Positions 1-29,396 of a stretch of 30,149 nt of DNA are shown here, in pieces. The stretch is from assembly GCA_021107945.1 (NCBI GenBank), contig JAIORV010000138.1, forward strand, positions 1 through 30,149, given 5' to 3'. This DNA comes from Vulcanimicrobiota bacterium (lineage in GTDB: Bacteria > Vulcanimicrobiota > JAJTBE01). The notes under the pieces were generated by a model, which was given only the letters and a program-made list of their open reading frames with translations, ran no database searches and was not told the origin of the DNA. The translations under genes and the position numbers were made by a program. Position 1 is the stretch's first letter. Each line of letters starts with the position of its first letter.

Positions 1-68
1 CCCGTCTTTGAGAAAATCATAGAAGTAAAGCTCTTCTCTCGTGATCCGCTCAGAATGACATGCTCAAG
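1..68. repeat. Dispersed ~70-bp repeat W, copy 1 (possibly truncated by the window edge)
   Basis: Aligns to 12208-12276. A third partial core CTTGATCCGCTCAGAAAGACA lies at 75-95. Confidence 0.7.
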
Positions 69-220
69 TCTTTCTTGATCCGCTCAGAAAGACAAGAAGC
101 CCCGGGGGACTGAATAATTACGCCTGAATCTTTGACAAAAAGTAAATGCACCCAAATCATATCAGCGAATGCCTGAAAAATAATGCAATAAATTAACACT
201 GAACCCTCGATATAATAAGT

Positions 221-7372: not shown

Positions 7373-7405
7373 AAGGAGCGAATTGAAATTCGCTCCTTGT
7401 TTTAT
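7373..7405 (+). terminator. Intrinsic terminator of the flotillin operon (hairpin copy T1)
   Basis: Perfect hairpin AAGGAGCGAAT-TGAA-ATTCGCTCCTT followed by GTTTTAT. Confidence 0.75.
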
Positions 7406-7490
7406 CTTGTTTTATCTTGTTTTATCTTGTTTTATCTTGTTTTATCTTATCTTGTTTTATCTTATCTTGTTTTATCTTATCTTGTTTTAT
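7396..7490. repeat. Tandem repeat: (CTTGTTTTAT)x5 then (CTTAT+CTTGTTTTAT)x3
   Basis: Direct reading of the sequence. The 10-bp units start at 7396, 7406, 7416, 7426 and 7436. The 15-bp units run from 7446 to 7490. Confidence 0.95.
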
Positions 7491-7658
7491 AGTATATAGT
7501 AATGCATTAATAGGGACAGACACCATTTTATTAATATATTATTTAGGGACAGGGATAAATTCCGGGCAATATTTCCTGAAAACAGCTTAAGCTGTATATA
7601 ATTAATGAAGTCTATTTTTCTCTGCGGCGAGACGCTGCAGACACCTGCATTGTTATAA

Positions 7659-7733: not shown

Positions 7734-8174
7734 TCAGGAAAATCCAATCTCCAGCTTCTTCCCAAAAGCCCTTGCCAACTTAAATAATGTTCTCAGAGTA
7801 ATATTCGACTTCTTTGCCCGTTCGATTTTTTGATAAGTCTGCCAGGGGATTCTTAGTTTTTCAGCCACCTGTTTCTGGGTCAATCCCGCTTCTTTTCTCA
7901 TATTCTTAAGAACCAGGGGGATCTCGATTTCCGGGTAAGGCGTGATATGAAGAATATCTTCTCCTTCCACTTTGGATGGCAAGGGGACTTCCTCATTGTC
8001 CTCAATCATTGATTCAATTACCATTGATAGAACATCCTGTCCCATTTCCACCAACTCCTCCAGGGATTCTCCCTGGGTAATTGCATCGGGAAAATCGATA
8101 AACTGAAGTGAGTATGCTGTCATATTATCATGATCTTCGAGGATTTCTTTCTCGAATTTTGCAGGATATTTCAT
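7734..8174 (-). CDS. hicB: HicB antitoxin with C-terminal HTH (XRE-like) domain
   Basis: 146 aa. N-terminal HicB fold and C-terminal HTH (LTQKQVAEKLRIPWQTYQKIERAK). Start lies 1 nt after the hicA stop (TAGAATG). Confidence 0.75.
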   Translation of the reverse strand: MKYPAKFEKEILEDHDNMTAYSLQFIDFPDAITQGESLEELVEMGQDVLSMVIESMIEDNEEVPLPSKVEGEDILHITPYPEIEIPLVLKNMRKEAGLTQKQVAEKLRIPWQTYQKIERAKKSNITLRTLFKLARAFGKKLEIGFS

Positions 8175-8455: not shown

Positions 8456-8540
8456 AGTAAAAAACCATTTTCATCCGGCGTCCCAACCGGAAAAAATGTG
8501 AAGAGTAGTTTTAATAGCGAATTGGTATAATTTAATGAAC

Positions 8541-8566
8541 AAGGAGCGAGTTTCAATTCGCTCCTT
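8541..8566. terminator. Hairpin copy T2 (inverted copy of T1). Likely terminator of ackA and boundary of the hicAB segment
   Basis: AAGGAGCGAGTTTCAATTCGCTCCTT matches the reverse complement of T1 at 25 of 26 positions. Confidence 0.6.
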
Positions 8567-12050: not shown

Positions 12051-12207
12051 ATATTACCGCGCTTTTACTGGATCAACCCCGGCAAGAACGGGTTTTACTT
12101 AACTCCGACGCCTTGCACAGCGAAGGATCTCCACTCATAACACATAGCCCCTCAAGTAAACATTCGATAGATTCTTCGCTGTGTCAATCACCGGTTATCA
12201 ACATAAT

Positions 12208-12276
12208 CCCATCTTTGAGAAAGTAATCTGAGTAAAGGATGTTTTTCGTGATCCGCTCAGTATGACAATCTCAGGG
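12208..12276. repeat. Dispersed ~70-bp repeat W, copy 2
   Basis: About 75% identical to window positions 1-68. Shared core TCTTTGAGAAA...GTGATCCGCTCAGNATGACA. Confidence 0.7.
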
Positions 12277-12299
12277 CTGTCTTTAATAAGGAATCAAAT

Positions 12300-15498: not shown

Positions 15499-15595
15499 GA
15501 GTAAATTTGCAAACAAATTGGCACGCAAATTAACAAACCTAAAGGTTTGAGCTACGAGGTTTGGGTTATGAACGTAGCGCGGGTTTTTAAACCCG
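15499..15595 (+). repeat. Mosaic REP module M1: 12-bp repeats, CCTAAAGGTTTGAGCTACGAGGTTTGGG, then REP
   Basis: Shares the layout of modules at 17365-17520 and 18117-18219. The REP copy (GTAG plus GCGGGTTTTTAAACCCGC) is at 15573-15595. Confidence 0.8.
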
Positions 15596-15807
15596 CCCGG
15601 TGGATGTCAGATTGAAATCGGGTGTTGTCTAAAAAATGTCATGAAAGATTAAGAATTAATAGGGGAAGAAGGAAATATATTTATTTTCAGGAAAAAAATG
15701 CCCTTTACGCAAAAGTTGTAGCTATTTGACGATATATAAAGGTTTTTTCTTGCTAAAATCAAAACTTTCAAGTAATTCTCAAAAAAAATTAAGGAGGATA
15801 ATTCGAT

Positions 15808-16842
15808 ATGAATAAGCGGGTTTTTAAGGCTATTGGCCTCACAATTCTGGTATTATCTTTTTTCGCAGCCATGCTTGTCGCTGGCTGCTCAAGTGGTGGA
15901 GGCGGAGGAGGATCTTCGTCGGATCCGACTTACACGCCGACATCGTCACCCACCCAGACAACAACGGTAACTGGACAAGTTACGGACAATGATGGTCCAG
16001 TTGCCAATGCCAGAGTAGAACTGGAATACACTAGCGGCTCTGGCAAAATGATTAAGGATGTAATTGTTGTTTATACAGATGAAAACGGCGATTACACAAT
16101 TCCGAATGTAGAAGTTGGACAGAATGTTAGAATATCAGCTTACTATCCTGACGGAAGTTGGTTGGGTTACTATGATGTGGTGGTACAAGAAGACCAACCA
16201 CCAATCGATGTTTCCCCAACCTCAACTCCAACGCCAACGCCGACGCCAAGCGTGACACCGAATCCGACGCCGACTTCGACAGCTTCACCGAGTCCGACGC
16301 CGACACCGACGGCAACACCGAGCCCGAGCCCGAGTACAACCCCAACGCCGGGGAATGGAACTCTGAATTTATCTTCAACCCCGAGTGGGGCGAAGATATT
16401 TATAGATAGTGTCGATACCGACACTACAACCCCAAATGTATTTTCCCTGATTCCAGGTAGCCATACATATAAATTAACACTGAGTGGTTATCAGGATTTT
16501 CAGGAAACTATAACGATTGTCGCGGATCAGACTGTGATTCGTGCGACTACATTAGTTCCCACATCTTCTGGGGAACAGGTCGAAGGAGATGTAAAGGATA
16601 GGGACACAGGTGGTCTCCTTGAAGGCGTAGAAATAAAATTTAAACAAGGAGAAACCACAGTTGAGACAATAAAAACAGACGACAAGGGAGAATTCTCAGT
16701 AAAATTACCAGCTGGGTTATATAGAGCCGAACTAAGACTTGCTGGTTACAGAGTAACCAGTTACCCCATAACTATCGAAACGGGGATCGTGAATGAATTT
16801 CATTGGACAATAAAAAATCTCGGTCAACAACAAACCGAGTGA
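15808..16842 (+). CDS. Surface lipoprotein with CarboxypepD_reg-like and PEGA domains and a Pro/Thr/Ser-rich linker
   Basis: Lipobox LVAGC|SSGGGGGG. Linker PTSTPTPTPTPSVTPNPTPTSTASPSPTPTPTATPSPSPS. PEGA-like segment GAKIFIDSVDTDTTTPNVFSLIPGSHTYKLTLSGYQDF. AGGAGG RBS. Confidence 0.7.
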   Translation: MNKRVFKAIGLTILVLSFFAAMLVAGCSSGGGGGGSSSDPTYTPTSSPTQTTTVTGQVTDNDGPVANARVELEYTSGSGKMIKDVIVVYTDENGDYTIPNVEVGQNVRISAYYPDGSWLGYYDVVVQEDQPPIDVSPTSTPTPTPTPSVTPNPTPTSTASPSPTPTPTATPSPSPSTTPTPGNGTLNLSSTPSGAKIFIDSVDTDTTTPNVFSLIPGSHTYKLTLSGYQDFQETITIVADQTVIRATTLVPTSSGEQVEGDVKDRDTGGLLEGVEIKFKQGETTVETIKTDDKGEFSVKLPAGLYRAELRLAGYRVTSYPITIETGIVNEFHWTIKNLGQQQTE

Positions 16843-16861
16843 AATAACAATGGTAATAATA

Positions 16862-16890
16862 GGCCCGCACAAAGTGTGGGTCTTTTTTTG
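16862..16890 (+). terminator. Intrinsic terminator of the lipoprotein gene
   Basis: GGCCCGCACAAAGTGTGGGTC hairpin (with G-U pairs) followed by TTTTTTT. Confidence 0.7.
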
Positions 16891-16941
16891 CAGAATCCAA
16901 AATGGGATATAGAATCCAAAATGGGTTCGCAATTTTTCTAC

Positions 16942-16971
16942 AAAACCACGCTTCGGGCGTGGTTTTGTTTT
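16942..16971 (+). terminator. Second strong hairpin with UUCG-type loop and T tract. Tandem terminator or 3' end of a short transcript
   Basis: AAAACCACGC-TTCG(G)-GCGTGGTTTT followed by GTTTT. Preceded by the direct repeat AGAATCCAAAATGGG at 16893-16907 and 16911-16925. Confidence 0.5.
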
Positions 16972-17180
16972 GGGGGTATAATAAGGGTTCCAGTAACAAA
17001 CGGATAAAATACGACGATCTTAAATTTTATCCACACTTCACACATTAATAAATTCTATGTATAATAACATTCAAACAATTTAATAATTTTAATAGGGGGT
17101 AGCTTAATTAAGACCCTTACGGGTTCTTTTTAAGCTATTAAACATATATTTGAGCTATTTTGTTACGTCGCCATAGGAAC

Positions 17181-17203
17181 GTAGCGCGGGTTTTTAAACC
17201 CGC
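17181..17203 (+). repeat. REP element copy (GTAG plus palindrome)
   Basis: GTAGCGCGGGTTTTTAAACCCGC. Flanked by inverted AATTAAGAC...GGGNTCTT hairpins at about 17102-17141 and 17205-17230. Confidence 0.85.
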
Positions 17204-17280
17204 TCAATTAAGACGTAAGGGGTCTTGTTGTCGGTTCTTTTTGTGATATCCCTTATTTGATTTTATCTTTTGGGATGGAA

Positions 17281-17330
17281 TCTTTAATACCTCATAAATT
17301 AACTGAGCTTCCCCGATTTTATTTTAGGGA
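17281..17330 (+). repeat. Duplicated leader segment L, copy 1
   Basis: AACTGAGCTTCCCCGATTTTATTTTAGGGATAATATGATAACAAA. About 93% identical to 18226-18275. Confidence 0.85.
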
Positions 17331-17364
17331 TAATATGATAACAAATAGAGATAAAATAATTGAT

Positions 17365-17520
17365 ACCAGTTTGGCGGCAAACCTAAAGGTTTGAGCTACG
17401 AGGTTTGAGCTACGAACGTAGCGCGGGTTTTTAAACCCGCTGATCATCTATGAGGTTTGGGGTGCGAGGTTTGGGTTGCGAACGTAGCGCGGGTTTTTAA
17501 ACCCGCTGGTCATCTGCGAG
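17365..17520 (+). repeat. Mosaic REP module M2 with two tandem REP copies (17418-17440 and 17484-17506)
   Basis: GGCAAACCTAAAGGTTTGAGCTACG, then two AGGTTTGRG-N-GAACGTAGCGCGGGTTTTTAAACCCGCTGRTCATCT units. Confidence 0.85.
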
Positions 17521-17613
17521 GTTTGAGATCAATTTGCATTATGGAGAGGATTGTTATATTATCACGTCAAAAAATAAAAAAAAGAGAATCTTGAAAAAGG
17601 GGGATCTAATCCG

Positions 17614-18111
17614 ATGGAACAACAATCTAAAAAATTACATTTCAAAGCGAAGAGATTGAAGGGATTTGAATACCACGGATTTTATCGCTATTTCCTGACA
17701 TTGTGCGTAGAAAAAAAACACCCCCTTTTCAAATCACAAAAACTAGTGGAGTTCATCCGCAGAAGTTTTTTCAAGACGGCTGAAGAATGGAAACCTGACA
17801 TAATCTGCTTTTGCTTTATGCCCGATCATCTTCATTTACTCGTCGGCGGGCTCGACGAATCCTCGGTTCTGAAGGGATTTATCAAAAATTTCAAACAAAA
17901 AACCGGTTACGCCTTCAAGCAAAAGACCGGGCGAAAATTATGGCAAAGGAGTTTCTATGACCATATTCTCCGGGATGAGGAGGAGACATACGTTATAGGC
18001 AAATATATTCTTGAGAACCCGGTGAGAAAAGGGATTGTGGAAGATTATCGGGATTATCCATTTTCATGGTGTAAATATTTTGAGTTGAAAGATGGGGATT
18101 CGGTTATTTGA
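17614..18111 (+). CDS. REP-associated tyrosine transposase (RAYT, IS200-like Y1 HuH transposase)
   Basis: 165 aa. HuH motif MPDHLHLLV. Catalytic Tyr motif YILENPVRKG (the YxxxNPV of TnpA_REP). Flanked on both sides by GTAG-palindrome REPs. AAGGGGGAT RBS. Confidence 0.85.
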   Translation: MEQQSKKLHFKAKRLKGFEYHGFYRYFLTLCVEKKHPLFKSQKLVEFIRRSFFKTAEEWKPDIICFCFMPDHLHLLVGGLDESSVLKGFIKNFKQKTGYAFKQKTGRKLWQRSFYDHILRDEEETYVIGKYILENPVRKGIVEDYRDYPFSWCKYFELKDGDSVI

Positions 18112-18116
18112 AGACA

Positions 18117-18219
18117 AATTGGCAAACAAATTCGCAAACAAATTGGCAAACCTAAAGGTTTGAGCTACGAGGTTTGAGAGGTTTGAGTTATGGAACGTAG
18201 CGCGGGTTTTTAAACCCGC
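18117..18219 (+). repeat. Mosaic REP module M3: 12-bp TTSGCAAACAAA x3, CCTAAAGGTTTGAGCTACGAGGTTTGAG, then REP at 18197-18219
   Basis: Direct reading. Same layout as M1 and M2. Confidence 0.85.
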
Positions 18220-18225
18220 TCGGTG

Positions 18226-18275
18226 ACTGAGCTTCCCCGTTTTGTTTTAGGGATAAATGATAACAAACATAAAGG
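18226..18275 (+). repeat. Duplicated leader segment L, copy 2 (provides the RBS region of the radical SAM gene)
   Basis: GACTGAGCTTCCCCGTTTTGTTTTAGGGATAAATGATAACAAACATAAAGG. Confidence 0.85.
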
Positions 18276-18287
18276 TGCCATAATAAT

Positions 18288-19430
18288 ATGCATATTACTC
18301 CGGAACAACAATCGAGGATGACAATGCCCATTACACATTGTGCGATATTTCTTACGGAGAGATGTGACCTTGCTTGCACTTATTGCTACCTGAAGAATAT
18401 CGCTCCTGCAAGAGATATGAGCGAGAAGGCCGGGATGGATGTTGTTGATTTTCTTTTATCACGGGCGAAAGAATATCTTTCAATAAGCTTTTTTGGCGGG
18501 GAGCCTCTGTTGGAATTTGATCTTATAAAAAAATTAATCTCCTATGCACGAAAAAGAGCGGAAGAGAATGAAATTAAAATCACTTTTTCCATAAACACGA
18601 ACGGCATACTGATCGACAGGGAAAAGATTGATTACCTTCGTAAAAACAGAATGGGAATAGTCCTCTCAATCGACGGGCTTCCGGAATCGCACGACACAAG
18701 GCGGATAACAAAAGAAGGTGGGGGGTCCTTTGACCTGCTGAATAAGAAAATCCCCATTCTTCTTGAAGATCCCCGGCAAGTGCATATAAGAATGACAGTC
18801 ACGCCTGATACTGTTTCGAAGATGTTCTGTGGGGTCAAATTTATTCACGACATCGGATTTCGAAGCCTTGCCGTGGCGATGGACAGAACTGCTCCCGGTT
18901 GGACAGGCGATAAGAAGAAAATTTTTGCAGACGAATACAAAGAAATCGTTGATTGGTATATTGATATGCTCAGGGAAGGAGACAAATTCAAGCTGATCGA
19001 TCTCGACTACGGTGCGGCAAGCCTGGATCATCCTTACCGGGAAAAGGGAATGCCTTGCGAAGCCGGCAGGAGTGGAATCGCCATTGATCCGGTGGGCATC
19101 ATATACCCATGCTACCGTTTCGTGGGGATGAAGGATACGGCAATTGGCGATATTTACAACGGATTTGATGATGAAAAGAGAAAAATATTCTTCGACTATT
19201 CCAGGTTGAATATTGAGAAATGTAAGAATTGTCCCTTCAATTTCCGCTGTCATCGCTGCCCATGGCTTTCATATACAATCACCGGTGATTATTCAGCTCC
19301 TGTTGACATCAACTGTTTTGAAGCGGATCTTATGATTGGTCTTTTCAGGTATTTCAGGGAGAAGATGGAGAAAGAAGAAAATGAGATTTACAGGAAAAGG
19401 GTTGAAATCCTGAAGAAAAAATATTTTTAA
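18288..19430 (+). CDS. Radical SAM/SPASM domain protein (anSME-like peptide or protein maturase)
   Basis: CDLACTYC (Cx3Cx2C). C-terminal Cx13Gx4C (CEAGRSGIAIDPVGIIYPC) and CKNCPFNFRCHRC cluster, typical of SPASM auxiliary Fe-S domains. Confidence 0.8.
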   Translation: MHITPEQQSRMTMPITHCAIFLTERCDLACTYCYLKNIAPARDMSEKAGMDVVDFLLSRAKEYLSISFFGGEPLLEFDLIKKLISYARKRAEENEIKITFSINTNGILIDREKIDYLRKNRMGIVLSIDGLPESHDTRRITKEGGGSFDLLNKKIPILLEDPRQVHIRMTVTPDTVSKMFCGVKFIHDIGFRSLAVAMDRTAPGWTGDKKKIFADEYKEIVDWYIDMLREGDKFKLIDLDYGAASLDHPYREKGMPCEAGRSGIAIDPVGIIYPCYRFVGMKDTAIGDIYNGFDDEKRKIFFDYSRLNIEKCKNCPFNFRCHRCPWLSYTITGDYSAPVDINCFEADLMIGLFRYFREKMEKEENEIYRKRVEILKKKYF

Positions 19431-19580: not shown

Positions 19581-21047
19581 CTACCTCAGCGTTTTTATTT
19601 TCTCTTTGACCTTTTTCACTTGGGAATTCCTGGGAGGCGCAAGCCTGACAAATTCCTTATATGCTTCAACAGCTTCTTTATTTCTGCCGACTTTTTCGCA
19701 TAACACCCCTTTCTGATAATATGCCCAGTAATATTTAGGGTCAACAGATATCGCCTTTGAAAAATCTTCTATCGCTTTCTCATTATCATCTATATCCCGG
19801 TATATTCGTCCCCTGTTGTAAAATGCATATTTATAATTGGGATCAATTGAAAGTGCGGCGTTCATATCCGCCAGTGCCTCATCATGCTTACCGAGCTTAC
19901 GATATGTATTTCCCCTGTTATTATATGCCTGTTTGAATTTTGGATTGAGTTTTATTGCTTCCGAGAAATCCGCGATTGCTTTTTGATTCATTCCCAGGTT
20001 CTTGTATGCGAGTCCCCTGTTGACGTATGCTCCCACGTTTTTCTTGGGGTCAATTTTAATAGTTCTCGTATTATCTGCGATGGATTCCCTATACTTTTTC
20101 TTTTTCAGCATAATCTGCCCGCGATTGTAATATGCAAGGGCGTAATTTGGATTCAACTTTATTGCCTTTGAATAATCTGCGAGAGCTTTTTCGGTATTCC
20201 CGGAATTTTGATTGCAAAGCCCCCTGTTATTGTATGCGATGTCATATTTGGGATCGATTTTTATCGCTGATGTATAATCTTTCATCGCCCTTTCGTATTT
20301 TTTCTTTCTCATATATGCATTCCCGCGGTTGTAATATGCCTTCTTGTATTTCGGATTCAATGTGATAACTCTGGTGTAATCCTCGATTGCTTTATCATAT
20401 TCTCTCATTGAGCTGTATGTAATACCGCGGTCATTGTATGCATCCTGGTATCCGGAGTATGTGGCTATAGCCTTTCCGAAGCTTTCCAACGCTTTCTTTT
20501 TGTTGTTTTTCTTCCTATAAACATTAGCTTTCTTGTAATGCGATTTCGCCAGCTTCATTTTTTGGGGAGAAACAGTGCTTGACACGGCAGGAGTCTCGAT
20601 TGATGCCGCCGGTGTTCCTGATACCTCGACAACTATCGGTGGAATGAATCTCTCAGACTTCTGAGCTTTGTAGTAATAAAGTATCCCCGCCGGGAAGGCA
20701 ATAAGTAACAACGATAATACAATCAATAATGGGAGAAGTGGATTGCCTTTCTTGTCTCTCCTGCCCTCGTTGGAATACTGACCGCTTTTTTCGTCCCGGT
20801 TTGAGGTGTAATCCCCGCGTTCCTGCTGAACGGATAAATCGGAGGGTCGTTGTCTCTCTGCATCCCGTACTGACTGACGTTTGCCAGTACTCCCACCTCC
20901 GGAGCGAGTTGAGCGGGATCTGTCACTTCCATTTTTCCTTGTAGATTGTGCCTGGTAGGACGATGAATCCTGTTTGATTCTGAATCCACAGGATATGCAA
21001 AATATACTTTTGTCGTCGTTCTCCACACCGCATGCGGGACATATCAT
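19581..21047 (-). CDS. Zinc-ribbon, TM and TPR-repeat protein
   Basis: N-terminal CPACG...CISCG zinc ribbon, Ser/Arg-rich disordered segment, one TM (LLPLLIVLSLLLIAF), and about 9 TPR repeats (AYYNRG...). Confidence 0.75.
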   Translation of the reverse strand: MICPACGVENDDKSIFCISCGFRIKQDSSSYQAQSTRKNGSDRSRSTRSGGGSTGKRQSVRDAERQRPSDLSVQQERGDYTSNRDEKSGQYSNEGRRDKKGNPLLPLLIVLSLLLIAFPAGILYYYKAQKSERFIPPIVVEVSGTPAASIETPAVSSTVSPQKMKLAKSHYKKANVYRKKNNKKKALESFGKAIATYSGYQDAYNDRGITYSSMREYDKAIEDYTRVITLNPKYKKAYYNRGNAYMRKKKYERAMKDYTSAIKIDPKYDIAYNNRGLCNQNSGNTEKALADYSKAIKLNPNYALAYYNRGQIMLKKKKYRESIADNTRTIKIDPKKNVGAYVNRGLAYKNLGMNQKAIADFSEAIKLNPKFKQAYNNRGNTYRKLGKHDEALADMNAALSIDPNYKYAFYNRGRIYRDIDDNEKAIEDFSKAISVDPKYYWAYYQKGVLCEKVGRNKEAVEAYKEFVRLAPPRNSQVKKVKEKIKTLR

Positions 21048-26907: not shown

Positions 26908-27390
26908 CTATTTGCCTGATATGATAATAAATTCATTATTGCCATAATGGAGGGCGCTTAATAATTATATTAACTTTTTTAGAGATTCTTCCACTGACCC
27001 ATAAACCTGAGTCTGAACTCATTTAAAATTCACCACAATTTTAAATATAAATATTTTCTCTCATCATTAAAGCTATCATGAAATCAACAGAGTGTCAAGA
27101 TTGAGCTTGTTAAATTTAGATTAACAAACGGAGATTCGAACGGGATCATTTCTTAGCAATAGTTAATTGTTATATATTCATCATTCCTTTTATGCATGTT
27201 TAAATTACTTCAAGTTGTTCGACATAATGGTCCATAAAATCAGACTCCCAACACATGCGTTCCTGGCGTTTTGTTAACAATTGTGTAACCTAAGTCCAAC
27301 GGATGCCGGAGCCCGATTCCCGTCTCACGTTTTCCACTTCCATTCCTGGTAGCGGAGGTTTTTGACTTACCCATATATAGTGATTTATTT

Positions 27391-27414
27391 GCGGATTTAA
27401 AAACCCGCGCTACG
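27391..27414 (-). repeat. REP element copy in inverted orientation, ~80 nt upstream of mutL
   Basis: GCGGATTTAAAAACCCGCGCTACG. This is the reverse complement of CGTAGCGCGGGTTTTTAAATCCGC. Confidence 0.8.
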
Positions 27415-29334: not shown

Positions 29335-29358
29335 GTAGCGGCGGGTCTCCCGACCCGC
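29335..29358 (+). repeat. Variant REP-like element downstream of mutL (possible terminator)
   Basis: GTAG-CG-GCGGGTC-TCCC-GACCCGC. Same GTAG-CG-palindrome architecture as the main REP family but with a different stem. Confidence 0.5.
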
Positions 29359-29396
29359 CTGGAAACGGCATGAAATCTATATGGAAATAAATATAA

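What the first reader, a model, noticed from the sequence alone, without database searches (positions are those of the whole stretch)
15499..18275. REP-RAYT system: a Y1 HuH transposase domesticated with its GTAG-palindrome REPs
ORF 17614-18111 has both RAYT hallmarks: the HuH motif (PDHLHLLV) and the catalytic YxxxNPV motif (YILENPV). It is flanked by repeats made of GTAG immediately 5' of the imperfect palindrome GCGGGTTTTTAAACCCGC. Copies lie at 15573-15595, 17181-17203, 17418-17440, 17484-17506 and 18197-18219. An inverted copy is at 27391-27414, and a stem variant is at 29335-29358. A conserved GTAG tetranucleotide plus a palindrome is the defining architecture of the REPs recognised by TnpA_REP in E. 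coli and Pseudomonas. Here it appears in a low-GC lineage with an AT-rich palindrome loop. The REP family seen here is therefore probably mobilised or maintained by this RAYT and likely recurs throughout the genome.
Basis: partly seen in the sequence, partly recalled or inferred. Interest (0 to 1): 0.78.

Follow-up and report, generated by a model that had tools for sequence, protein, structure and literature searches.

The report
REP hairpins around a RAYT transposase gene
This is an ordinary example of a known bacterial system: a small tamed transposase gene (a RAYT) sitting in a cluster of the short GTAG-tagged DNA hairpins it is thought to cut and copy, here in an uncultured Eremiobacterota-like bacterium.

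Summary
The 23-mer GTAGCGCGGGTTTTTAAACCCGC occurs five times exactly on the + strand. A sixth copy, with one mismatch, lies inverted at 27391-27413. Shuffles expect none. ORF 17614-18111 passes NCBI's REP-associated tyrosine transposase equivalog model and fails the IS200 model. It carries H72-L-H74, Y131 and NPVRKG, and its predicted fold is closest to E. coli TnpA_REP (4ER8).

A second repeat type, GTAGCTCAAACCTTTAGGTTTG, lies on the minus strand head-to-head with the first, so the gene sits in BIME-like doublets. That second repeat is embedded in tandem half-hairpin arrays.

Five relatives at 45-55% identity are all flanked by the same design: GTAG, 1-2 nt, a 7-8 bp stem and a TTYA loop. 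Their stems covary. [quoted passage not shown]

Two points stay open:
- **Genome-wide spread.** It could not be counted, because the source genome is in neither scannable collection. In about 55 kb I found only three repeat loci away from the transposase genes.
- **"Domesticated".** This is plausible but not shown. The genome holds a second, frameshifted copy with the same ends.

Verdict: a new member of a known kind, of low to moderate interest.

The parts
15503..15531 (+). Tandem 12-mers (AAATTGGCAAAC-like, 2.4 copies). Each unit carries the GCAAAC arm of the REP2 hairpin.
   Evidence: TRF; repeat family D5
15534..15555 (-). REP2 copy. On the minus strand it reads GTAGCTCAAACCTTTAGGTTTG: GTAGC, T, a 6-7 bp stem and a TTTA loop.
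   Evidence: ssDNA fold -4.0 kcal/mol
15556..15569 (-). Degenerate half-REP2 14-mer (GAGGTTTGGGTTAT on the + strand).
15574..15596 (+). REP1 copy: GTAGC, then GCGGGTT-TTTA-AACCCGC. It lies head-to-head with the REP2 at 15534-15555.
   Evidence: ssDNA fold -7.6 kcal/mol
17181..17203 (+). Solitary REP1 copy, 340 nt downstream of the PEGA-domain lipoprotein gene.
17378..17399 (-). REP2 copy upstream of the RAYT gene. It marks the left limit of the unit shared with L001 and L002.
17400..17413 (-). Half-REP2 14-mer. On the minus strand it reads GTAGCTCAAACCTC.
17418..17440 (+). REP1 copy, in the first unit of the 66-nt tandem duplication 17387-17527.
17452..17479 (-). Two degenerate half-REP2 14-mers (GAGGTTTGGGGTGC and GAGGTTTGGGTTGC).
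17484..17506 (+). REP1 copy, in the second unit of the 66-nt duplication. An independent assembly of the same genome breaks inside it.
   Evidence: L013 starts at window position 17493
17533..17562 (+). Promoter-like site (TTTGCA, 16-18 nt, TATATT/TATTAT) in the leader conserved between the window, L001 and L002. A GGGGGA ribosome-binding site follows about 8 nt before the ATG.
   Evidence: This is a consensus match only.
17614..18111 (+). RAYT / TnpA_REP gene, 165 aa. HuH motif at H72-L-H74, catalytic Y131, NPVRKG at 135-140, T29, W110-Q111.
   Evidence: dN/dS 0.11 against L001
18114..18151 (+). Tandem 12-mers (ACAAATTGGCAA, 3.2 copies) starting just after the stop codon and running into REP2.
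18147..18168 (-). REP2 copy downstream of the RAYT gene. It marks the right limit of the shared unit.
18169..18191 (-). Half-REP2 units: a 9-mer GAGGTTTGA and a 14-mer GAGGTTTGAGTTAT.
18197..18219 (+). REP1 copy downstream of the RAYT gene, head-to-head with the REP2 at 18147-18168.
27349..27371 (+). Decayed REP1-like element, GTAGCGGAGGTTTTTGACTTACC. It differs at 3 positions from the L002 variant GTAGCGGAGGTTTTTAAACCTCC.
27391..27413 (-). Dispersed REP1 copy with 1 mismatch. It lies tail-to-tail with the decayed element at 27349 and about 80 nt upstream of mutL.
29335..29359 (+). Third GTAG hairpin type, GTAGC-GGCGGGTC-TCCC-GACCCGCC, 67 nt after the mutL stop codon.
   Evidence: ssDNA fold -10.3 kcal/mol, z -3.4

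Best explanation
The region is a REPtron: a gene for a REP-associated tyrosine transposase (RAYT, also called TnpA_REP; an HUH single-tyrosine nuclease) embedded in clusters of its cognate repetitive extragenic palindromes.

Two REP types share one design: GTAGC, one spacer base, a 6-7 bp stem and a TTTA loop. REP1 lies on the + strand and REP2 on the - strand. They form head-to-head heterodimers, as in BIMEs, on both sides of the gene.

By analogy with E. coli TnpA_REP and the group-3 enzymes of Stenotrophomonas and Marinomonas, the inferred mechanism has these steps:
1. The protein binds the folded single-stranded REP, but not its complement. It reads the GTAG tag and the loop.
2. It cleaves at a nearby CT or CA dinucleotide using Y131, with metal held by H72 and H74.
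3. It forms a 5'-phosphotyrosyl link.
4. It rejoins the strands.

This would amplify REPs locally, as in the 66-nt tandem duplication and the cluster of five REP1 copies. It would occasionally seed copies in other intergenic regions, such as 27349-27413, 29335 and L002 1784-1919.

Shown here: protein family and fold, hairpin anatomy, physical association, covariation across lineages, and purifying selection on the gene. Inferred: binding, cleavage, strand transfer and ongoing activity.
For: **Protein.**
- Pfam Y1_Tnp scores 44.9 bits.
- NCBIfam REP_Tyr_transpos equivalog scores 102.5 bits against a cut-off of 80, while the IS200 model scores 32.8 against 55.
- The best PDB sequence hit is 4ER8, with the HuH and YxxxNPV motifs aligned.
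- The AlphaFold model has mean pLDDT 89. Its best Foldseek hit is 4ER8 (TM 0.70, rmsd 2.3 A), against TM about 0.52 for IS608 and ISDra2 TnpA.
- T29, H74, Y131, N135, P136 and R138 are invariant in 36 homologues; H72, K139 and G140 are conserved in at least 90%.
- dN/dS is 0.11 against the 89%-identical homologue in L001.

**DNA.**
- REP1 has 6 copies against 0 expected.
- The window has 9 perfect GTAG hairpins against 1.6 expected, and all are intergenic.
- The hairpins fold as ssDNA with 4-nt TTTA loops.

**Comparative.**
- In 8 loci from 6 lineages, GTAG hairpins reach 4.5 per kb within 400 nt of the RAYT gene, against 0.09 per kb elsewhere (Poisson P about 2e-38).
- In 21 REPs from these lineages, GTAG and loop positions T, T and A are invariant. 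The third loop position is T or C. Six of 7 stem pairs covary.
- This matches the loop requirement T12 T13 N14 A15 found for Marinomonas REPMb (PMC8266576).

**Multi-copy status.** Two independent assemblies of the same genome break inside the REP clusters, at window positions 17493 and 15563.
Against: - No biochemical data exist for this protein or its clade.
- The genome-wide copy number is unknown. Exact REP1 was found only next to the two RAYT copies and once, with 1 mismatch, 9 kb away.
- The scan that picked REPs in other lineages required near-perfect hairpins, so the stem covariation is partly circular. The loop and GTAG conservation and the enrichment near the gene are not.
- The three closest loci (window, L001, L002) are not independent.
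Confidence: 0.85

Rival explanations
1. The whole unit of about 740-810 bp (REP2, REP1, promoter, RAYT, REP2) is, or recently was, an autonomous IS200/IS605-like insertion sequence that moves as a unit. The two REP2 hairpins, in direct orientation on the bottom strand, would act like left and right ends.
For: - The unit has the same boundaries in three unrelated gene contexts: window 17368-18178, L001 3851-4595 and L002 9601-10341.
- Two of those contexts are in the same genome or population.
- Its size is that of IS200.
- A solo 'end' without a gene lies at 15503-15602, 84% identical to the right end at 18116-18225.
Against: - The IS200 profile score is below its cut-off.
- The Y motif is Y---NP, not Y[IV]ENQ, and the W motif is WQ. 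These are the class 2 signatures of PMC6006769.
- The copies differ by 9-16% at the nucleotide level, with dS 0.34-0.5. IS copies are typically about 99% identical.
- Distant relatives show the gene sitting in alternating BIME-like arrays, so direct flanking pairs arise automatically.
- Homologues are nearly absent from plasmids (6 of 72,556 records) and phages (1 of 50,697).
Confidence: 0.12
2. The repeats are only a local duplication product around one gene, made by slippage or recombination. They are not a dispersed REP family and are not acted on by the RAYT.
For: - Five of the six REP1 copies lie within 2.7 kb.
- There is a 66-nt tandem duplication.
- A 45-nt direct repeat brackets the gene.
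- Exact REP1 is rare in public collections: 3 genome loci and 6 metagenome loci.
Against: - A REP1 copy and a decayed partner lie 9 kb away at 27349-27413, and a variant lies at 29335.
- A BIME-like cluster of REP1-like and REP2-like variants lies 8 kb from the second RAYT copy (L002 1784-1919).
- REP1 stays 100% identical in L001 and L002 although the adjacent gene has diverged by 9-16%.
- The same gene-plus-hairpin design recurs in five distant lineages with different stems.
- Assemblies break in the repeats.
Confidence: 0.08
3. The hairpins are host regulatory elements, such as terminators, mRNA stabilisers or protein-binding sites, and their position next to the transposase-like gene is incidental.
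For: - REPs in E. coli have such secondary roles (general knowledge, cited in PMC8266576).
- All copies here are intergenic.
Against: - No T-run follows REP1. The lipoprotein gene has its own canonical terminator at 16861-16883, 300 nt before the nearest REP1.
- There are no Rfam matches.
- The 49-fold enrichment right at RAYT genes in six lineages is not expected for generic regulatory hairpins.
Confidence: 0.05

Closest known systems
REPtron Mb of Marinomonas sp. MWYL1 (group 3 / subclass 2.5 TnpA_REP; Corneloup et al. 2021, PMC8266576)
   Same: - The REPs are short perfect palindromes with the GTAG tag set 1-2 nt away from the stem.
- The loop is TTTA. In vitro, positions 1, 2 and 4 are required and position 3 is free. 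In my comparison, T, T and A are invariant and position 3 is T or C.
- The REPs are concentrated next to the tnpA gene rather than spread evenly.
- The HuH motif is DHLH, the W motif is WQ, and D replaces E100 of the E. coli enzyme.
   Different: - The stems are 6-7 bp rather than 5 bp.
- The Y motif is YILENP rather than YI[VI]ANP.
- The host is an uncultured Eremiobacterota-like anaerobe, not a gammaproteobacterium.
- Two REP types with unrelated stems form the doublets.
- Half-hairpin tandem arrays surround REP2.
- Phylogenetic membership of subclass 2.5 was not tested.
E. coli TnpA_REP (RayT/YafM) with Y, Z1 and Z2 REPs and BIMEs (group 2 / subclass 2.2; PDB 4ER8)
   Same: - It is the best sequence and structure match among solved structures.
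- Both proteins are 165 aa.
- The gene is flanked by two different REP types in inverted orientation.
- The hairpins carry a GTAG tag.
   Different: - Identity is only about 21%.
- E. coli REPs are long (29-37 nt), with a bulge that is required for activity. Here the hairpins are short and perfect.
- The W motif is WE in E. coli and WQ here.
- The tail after the catalytic Tyr is shorter: 34 aa here against 50 aa (Y131 against Y115).
Pseudomonas REPIN-RAYT systems (Bertels & Rainey 2011; group 3)
   Same: - The REPs are arranged as inverted doublets.
- A genome can hold several RAYT paralogues.
- The RAYT is under purifying selection and is chromosomal.
   Different: - Pseudomonas REPINs are homodimers that form one long hairpin and number in the hundreds.
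- Here the doublets are heterodimers in which only the GTAGC heads pair.
- The copy number here is unknown.
- Both paralogues here carry the same REP types.
IS200/IS605 family (IS608, ISDra2, IS200)
   Same: - Both have an HUH-Y1 catalytic core.
- Both recognise subterminal ssDNA hairpins with a 5' tetranucleotide.
- The unit is about 0.7-0.8 kb.
   Different: - The match falls below the IS200 model cut-off.
- The Y---NP and WQ signatures are present instead.
- The fold matches the monomeric 4ER8 arrangement better (TM 0.70 against 0.52).
- Copy number is low and the copies have diverged.

Membership tests
RAYT / TnpA_REP (class 2 TnpA_Y1) | HuH metal-binding motif and a single catalytic tyrosine | tested here: met
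   D71-H72-L73-H74 and Y131 are present. H74 and Y131 are invariant and H72 is at least 90% conserved in 36 homologues. Both motifs align to those of 4ER8.
RAYT / TnpA_REP (class 2 TnpA_Y1) | RAYT-specific motifs absent from IS200 transposases: Y---NP, NP(L/V)(R/K)xG next to the Tyr, and a conserved N-terminal Thr (PMC2817692, PMC6006769) | tested here: met
   Y131-ILE-N135-P136-V-R-K-G140 and T29 are present, and the core residues are invariant in alignment A3.
RAYT / TnpA_REP (class 2 TnpA_Y1) | Scores above the curated cut-off of the family model and not of the IS200 model | tested here: met
   NF047646 scores 102.5 bits against 80. NF033573 scores 32.8 bits against 55.
RAYT / TnpA_REP (class 2 TnpA_Y1) | TnpA_REP fold | tested here: met
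   The model has pLDDT 89.1. The top Foldseek hit is 4ER8 with E 7e-10, TM 0.70 and rmsd 2.3 A.
RAYT / TnpA_REP (class 2 TnpA_Y1) | Gene flanked by REPs in inverted orientation (REPtron) | tested here: met
   Upstream lie REP2(-) at 17378 and REP1(+) at 17418 and 17484. Downstream lie REP2(-) at 18147 and REP1(+) at 18197. The pattern is the same in L001 and L002.
RAYT / TnpA_REP (class 2 TnpA_Y1) | REP is a hairpin with a 5' GT[AG]G tag at or near its foot | tested here: met
   All 10 elements start with GTAGC, followed by a hairpin after 1-2 nt.
RAYT / TnpA_REP (class 2 TnpA_Y1) | [quoted passage not shown] | not testable with these tools
Partial evidence: three dispersed loci in about 55 kb, and assemblies that break in the REPs.
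RAYT / TnpA_REP (class 2 TnpA_Y1) | Low copy number with diverged copies, unlike an IS | tested here: inconclusive
   At least two copies exist in the MAG, one of them frameshifted. They are 91% identical at the nucleotide level over the 396-nt in-frame part downstream of the frameshift, with dS 0.34. The genome is incomplete, so the total is unknown.
RAYT / TnpA_REP (class 2 TnpA_Y1) | Strand-specific binding, cleavage and strand transfer on single-stranded REP | not testable with these tools
   This needs purified protein and a CST assay as in PMC8266576.
Subclass 2.5 / Bertels group 3 | Signature DH[LF]H, WQ and YI[VI]ANP, with short REPs whose tag may sit 1-2 nt from the stem (PMC6006769) | tested here: inconclusive
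   DHLH, WQ and the short REPs with a 1-2 nt spacer match. The Y motif is YILENP, not YI[VI]ANP. No reference sequences were available for a tree.
IS200/IS605 (subclass 1.1) | Y[IV]ENQ and W[TS] motifs, a score above the IS200 model cut-off, and several near-identical copies | tested here: not met
   The motifs are YILENP and WQ. The score is 32.8 bits, below 55. The copies are 9-16% diverged.

The most novel reading that the evidence does not exclude
This REPtron may be less 'tamed' than the textbook cases. A unit of about 0.75 kb, bounded on both sides by the same REP2 composite, occurs in three unrelated contexts, twice in one genome. REP2 is embedded in tandem arrays of its own half-sites (GTAGC plus the 5' arm, and the 3' arm plus a spacer). 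These could be footprints of RAYT cleavage and rejoining. If so, the locus would be a natural intermediate between IS200/IS605 elements and domesticated RAYTs, and it would record the enzyme's cut sites in the genome.
Probability: 0.15. Interest if true: 0.55.

Novelty: new member of a known kind. Interest (0 to 1): 0.27.

Why it matters
It matters modestly.
- It places a REP/RAYT system with the short-hairpin, TTYA-loop design in uncultured anaerobic lineages: an Eremiobacterota-like MAG, with relatives labelled Nitrospirota, Thermodesulfobacteriota and Saganbacteria. That design has been studied experimentally only in gammaproteobacteria.
- The natural variation agrees with the published SELEX result for the Marinomonas enzyme: GTAG and loop positions 1, 2 and 4 are fixed, and the stems are free to covary.
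- Practically, these repeats break short-read assemblies of this genome. The gene should be annotated as a REP-associated tyrosine transposase rather than as a plain 'transposase'.
- It does not open a new question.

Tried and rejected
- **Finding the source genome.** I scanned genome contigs and metagenome contigs for exact REP1, to find the source genome and count copies. Only 3 and 6 single-copy loci came back, none from the source genome. The genome-wide count was abandoned.
- **Walking the second RAYT contig.** I tried to extend the 67-kb contig that holds the second RAYT copy by looking up its proteins.
- **Left-flank synteny with L001.** I suspected it because of a shared TTTTTTTGCAGAATCC motif. 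The neighbouring proteins are unrelated (E 0.34), and only a short motif aligns. Rejected.
- **Conserved RAYT-radical SAM pairing.** A radical SAM gene also follows the RAYT in L016. The two radical SAM proteins are only 28% identical. I treat this as coincidence.
- **REP1 as an intrinsic terminator.** Rejected, because no T-run follows it and a canonical terminator lies elsewhere.
- **Known RNA families.** None reach threshold in the window.
- **Plasmid or phage origin.** Homologues are almost absent from both, and the neighbours are housekeeping genes: fabD, fabG, fabH, ackA and mutL.
- **A first dN/dS run on copy B.** It was out of frame and was discarded (second part). It was redone in frame.


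Full report
**1. Observation**

The 23-mer GTAGCGCGGGTTTTTAAACCCGC ("REP1") is exact at 15574-15596, 17181-17203, 17418-17440, 17484-17506 and 18197-18219 on the + strand. It also occurs once on the - strand at 27391-27413 with one mismatch. None is expected in 100 dinucleotide-preserving shuffles.

The variant at 29335-29359 is real: GTAGC-GGCGGGTC-TCCC-GACCCGCC.

ORF 17614-18111 encodes 165 aa containing MPDHLHLLV and YILENPV.

A general scan for GTAG followed within 3 nt by a perfect hairpin finds 9 sites in the window. Shuffles give 1.6 on average and at most 5, and control tetramers give 0-2. All ten elements, counting the mismatched copy, are intergenic. About 75% of the window is coding, by my own tally of the ORFs.

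**2.

- A second GTAG hairpin family ("REP2") lies on the minus strand. It reads GTAGCTCAAACCTTTAGGTTTG, at 15534-15555, 17378-17399 and 18147-18168.
- REP1 and REP2 share one design: GTAGC, one spacer base, a 6-7 bp stem and a TTTA loop. As single-stranded DNA they fold at -7.6 and -4.0 kcal/mol.
- They sit head-to-head, and their GTAGC heads are mutually complementary. This is a heterodimeric, BIME-like doublet.
- REP2 is embedded in tandem half-sites. The 14-mers GAGGTTTGAGCTAC read, on the minus strand, as GTAGC plus the 5' arm. The 12-mers AAATTGGCAAAC carry the other arm.
- The two REP1 copies just upstream of the gene come from a 66-nt tandem duplication at 17387-17527.

**3. The protein**

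- Pfam Y1_Tnp scores 44.9 bits.
- The NCBIfam equivalog "REP-associated tyrosine transposase" scores 102.5 bits against a cut-off of 80. The IS200 equivalog scores 32.8 bits against 55.
- The best solved-structure sequence match is E. coli TnpA_REP (4ER8, E 2e-6), with both motifs aligned.
- In an alignment of 36 homologues, T29, H74, W110, Y131, N135, P136 and R138 are invariant. H72, K139 and G140 are nearly so.
- These residues cover the RAYT-specific N-terminal Thr and the NP(L/V)(R/K)xG motif of Nunvar et al. (PMC2817692). They also cover the class 2 Y---NP signature of Quentin et al. (PMC6006769).
- The AlphaFold model (pLDDT 89) matches 4ER8 best (TM 0.70, rmsd 2.3 A). IS608 and ISDra2 transposases reach TM of about 0.52.
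- dN/dS against the 89%-identical homologue in L001 is 0.11, with dS 0.48. The gene is therefore under purifying selection.
- The family is large: 11,487 clusters at 50% identity with E <= 1e-3. It is almost absent from plasmids and phages.

**4. Source and context**

The window is a 30,149-bp contig of an NCBI MAG labelled Candidatus Eremiobacteraeota. The RAYT is MCD4784994.1 and MutL is MCD4785003.1. The neighbours are housekeeping genes: fabG, fabD, fabH, yceD, acetate kinase and mutL.

The same population was assembled in ENA ERZ26872897. There, the contig syntenic to the window starts at window position 17493, inside a REP1. A Logan contig from another run ends at 15563, inside the REP2/14-mer cluster. 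Assemblers breaking there fits with these sequences being multi-copy.

**5. A second copy**

The same assembly and the NCBI MAG hold a second RAYT (L002; MCD4786397.1) in an unrelated context, between a histidine kinase and peptidase U32 genes. It is broken by a 1-nt deletion in an A-run and has a P-to-L change next to the HuH motif.

It is 91% identical to the window copy at the nucleotide level over the 396-nt in-frame part downstream of the frameshift, with dS 0.34 and dN/dS 0.12. The two are therefore old paralogues, and the break is either recent or a homopolymer error.

A third context is seen in L001, a JGI metagenome contig.

In all three, homology starts at a REP2 composite on the left and ends in a REP2 composite on the right. 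It includes REP1 and a conserved promoter-like leader. REP1 is 100% identical in all three although the genes differ by 9-16%.

**6. Comparative test**

I fetched five homologues at 45-55% identity: L003 and L015-L018. All are flanked on both sides by GTAG hairpins of the same format, in alternating orientation. Each lineage has its own stems, and each 20-kb locus holds 0-4 further copies elsewhere.

Over eight loci, the density is 4.5 per kb within 400 nt of the gene against 0.09 per kb elsewhere, P about 2e-38. The three closest loci are not independent.

In 21 REPs from these lineages, GTAG and loop positions 1, 2 and 4 (T, T, A) are invariant. Loop position 3 is T or C. Six of seven stem pairs show changes on both sides.

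The stem result is partly circular, because my scan required near-perfect hairpins. The loop and tag conservation is not, because the scan did not constrain the loop.

[quoted passage not shown] There the loop is T12 T13 T14 A15, a substrate with position 14 degenerate behaves like wild type, and changes at the other three positions compromise activity. GTAG sits 2 nt from a short perfect stem (PMC8266576).

By signature (DHLH, WQ, D in place of E100, short REPs with a spacer) the protein resembles subclass 2.5 / group 3 (PMC6006769). Its Y motif, YILENP, differs from YI[VI]ANP, and I could not build a tree.

**7. Dispersal**

The source genome is in neither scannable collection. Exact REP1 gave only 3 loci in species-representative genomes and 6 in metagenomes. 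None is from this genome. Several are from much higher-GC contigs, such as a Smithellaceae MAG, where REP1 pairs tail-to-tail with GTAGTGCGCACCTTCAGGTGCGC.

In the roughly 55 kb of this genome that I could read, the REP loci away from RAYT genes are:
- window 27349-27413, a decayed REP1-like element tail-to-tail with REP1, 80 nt before mutL;
- window 29335-29359;
- L002 1784-1919, a BIME-like cluster of the variants GTAGCGGAGGTTTTTAAACCTCC and GTAGCGGATACCTTCAGGTTTCC.

So dispersed and diversified copies exist. Exact REP1, however, is concentrated around the gene. The same pattern is described for the Marinomonas REPtrons, where it was read as recent local multiplication (PMC8266576).

**8. 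Mechanism**

Best explanation, confidence 0.85: this is a REPtron.

Inferred steps, from the E. coli, Stenotrophomonas and Marinomonas enzymes:
1. The RAYT binds the folded single-stranded REP in a strand-specific way, through GTAG and the loop.
2. It cuts at a nearby CT or CA with Y131, with metal held by H72 and H74.
3. It forms a 5'-phosphotyrosyl intermediate.
4. It rejoins the strands, giving local amplification and occasional new intergenic copies.

Nothing about activity is shown here.

Rivals:
- An autonomous IS200-like unit (0.12). The conserved boundaries in three contexts argue for it. The profiles, motifs, diverged copies and BIME-like embedding argue against it.
- Purely local duplication (0.08).
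- Host regulatory hairpins with an incidental association (0.05).

**9. Novelty and verdict**

RAYTs, REPtrons, GTAG-tagged REPs, heterodimeric doublets, multiple REPtrons per genome and REPs concentrated near the gene are all described (PMC2817692, PMC3733652, PMC5581495, PMC6006769, PMC8266576).

Three things are new here:
- the host lineage (no paper in the library links RAYTs with Eremiobacterota);
- the half-hairpin tandem arrays around REP2;
- two paralogous units sharing the same REPs.

This is a new member of a known kind. "Genome-wide" remains untested and "domesticated" remains unproven. Interest: 0.27.

Noticed in passing
window 1-95 and 12060-12283; L002 3391-3575 and 12931-13115; L001 3191-3430 and 4673-4785: A second, unrelated intergenic repeat of about 200 bp is shared by these genomes at 70-80% identity. 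It has internal inverted arms (CAGCGAAGGATCTC / GAGATTCTTCGCTG) and ends in GTGATCCGCTCAGAATGAC. The window contig starts inside one copy. There is no Rfam match.
   Followed up: partly
window 15503-15569, 17378-17413, 17452-17479, 18114-18191; L001 3546-3659, 3851-3943, 4548-4595: REP2 is surrounded by tandem arrays of its own half-sites: 14-mers carrying GTAGC plus the 5' arm, and 12-mers carrying the 3' arm plus a spacer. Copy number varies from 1 to 7 between loci. The spacer differs between lineages (AAATTG against AAGATG) while the arm is kept. The origin is unexplained.
   Followed up: partly
window 17302-17345 and 18226-18267: A 45-nt direct repeat (93% identical) brackets the RAYT core. 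Each copy lies downstream of a REP1, by 98 nt and 6 nt respectively. It could be a trace of how the unit arrived upstream of the radical SAM gene.
   Followed up: no
L002 9798-10294 (ENA ERZ26872897 NODE_24; NCBI MCD4786397.1): This is a second RAYT copy in the same genome. It is broken by a 1-nt deletion in an A8-9 run and has a P-to-L change beside the HuH motif, yet dN/dS against the intact copy is 0.12. It may be a recent pseudogene or a homopolymer sequencing error.
   Followed up: partly
L004, L006 (Smithellaceae MAG JAQVQT01), L007, L008, L010-L012: The exact 23-nt REP1 also occurs in contigs of 51-58% GC from other lineages. In several it is paired tail-to-tail with another GTAG hairpin (GTAGTGCGCACCTTCAGGTGCGC). 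No RAYT more than 56% identical was found outside the window's lineage. This could be convergence in a small sequence space or horizontal transfer.
   Followed up: partly
window 7373-7496 and 8538-8566: A hairpin, AAGGAGCGAATTGAAATTCGCTCCTT, and its inverted twin bracket a HicB-like/HTH antitoxin gene (7734-8174). The first hairpin abuts a tandem array of 10- and 15-mers (TTGTTTTATC, about 8 copies).
   Followed up: no
window 19581-21047 (- strand): A 488-aa ORF with no Pfam match on record shows a 102-nt (34-aa) internal periodicity, with five copies at 19810-20370.
   Followed up: no
window 16884-16945; L001 3040-3085: The motif TTTTTTTGCAGAATCC...TTCRCAATTTTTCTRC follows a terminator in both genomes, although the adjacent genes are unrelated. 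It is another small shared intergenic element.
   Followed up: partly
window 18288-19430; L016 10729-11802: A radical SAM gene directly follows the RAYT both here (with a weak SPASM match, below the Pfam cut-off) and in a 49%-identical relative. The two radical SAM proteins are only 28% identical, so this is probably coincidence. A preprint reports TnpA_REP genes associated with lanthipeptide genes in picocyanobacteria (10.1101/2020.03.09.984088).
   Followed up: partly
L013 14148-17612 (beyond the window's 3' end): Three consecutive HEPN / nucleotidyltransferase (MNT-type) toxin-antitoxin pairs lie there.
   Followed up: no
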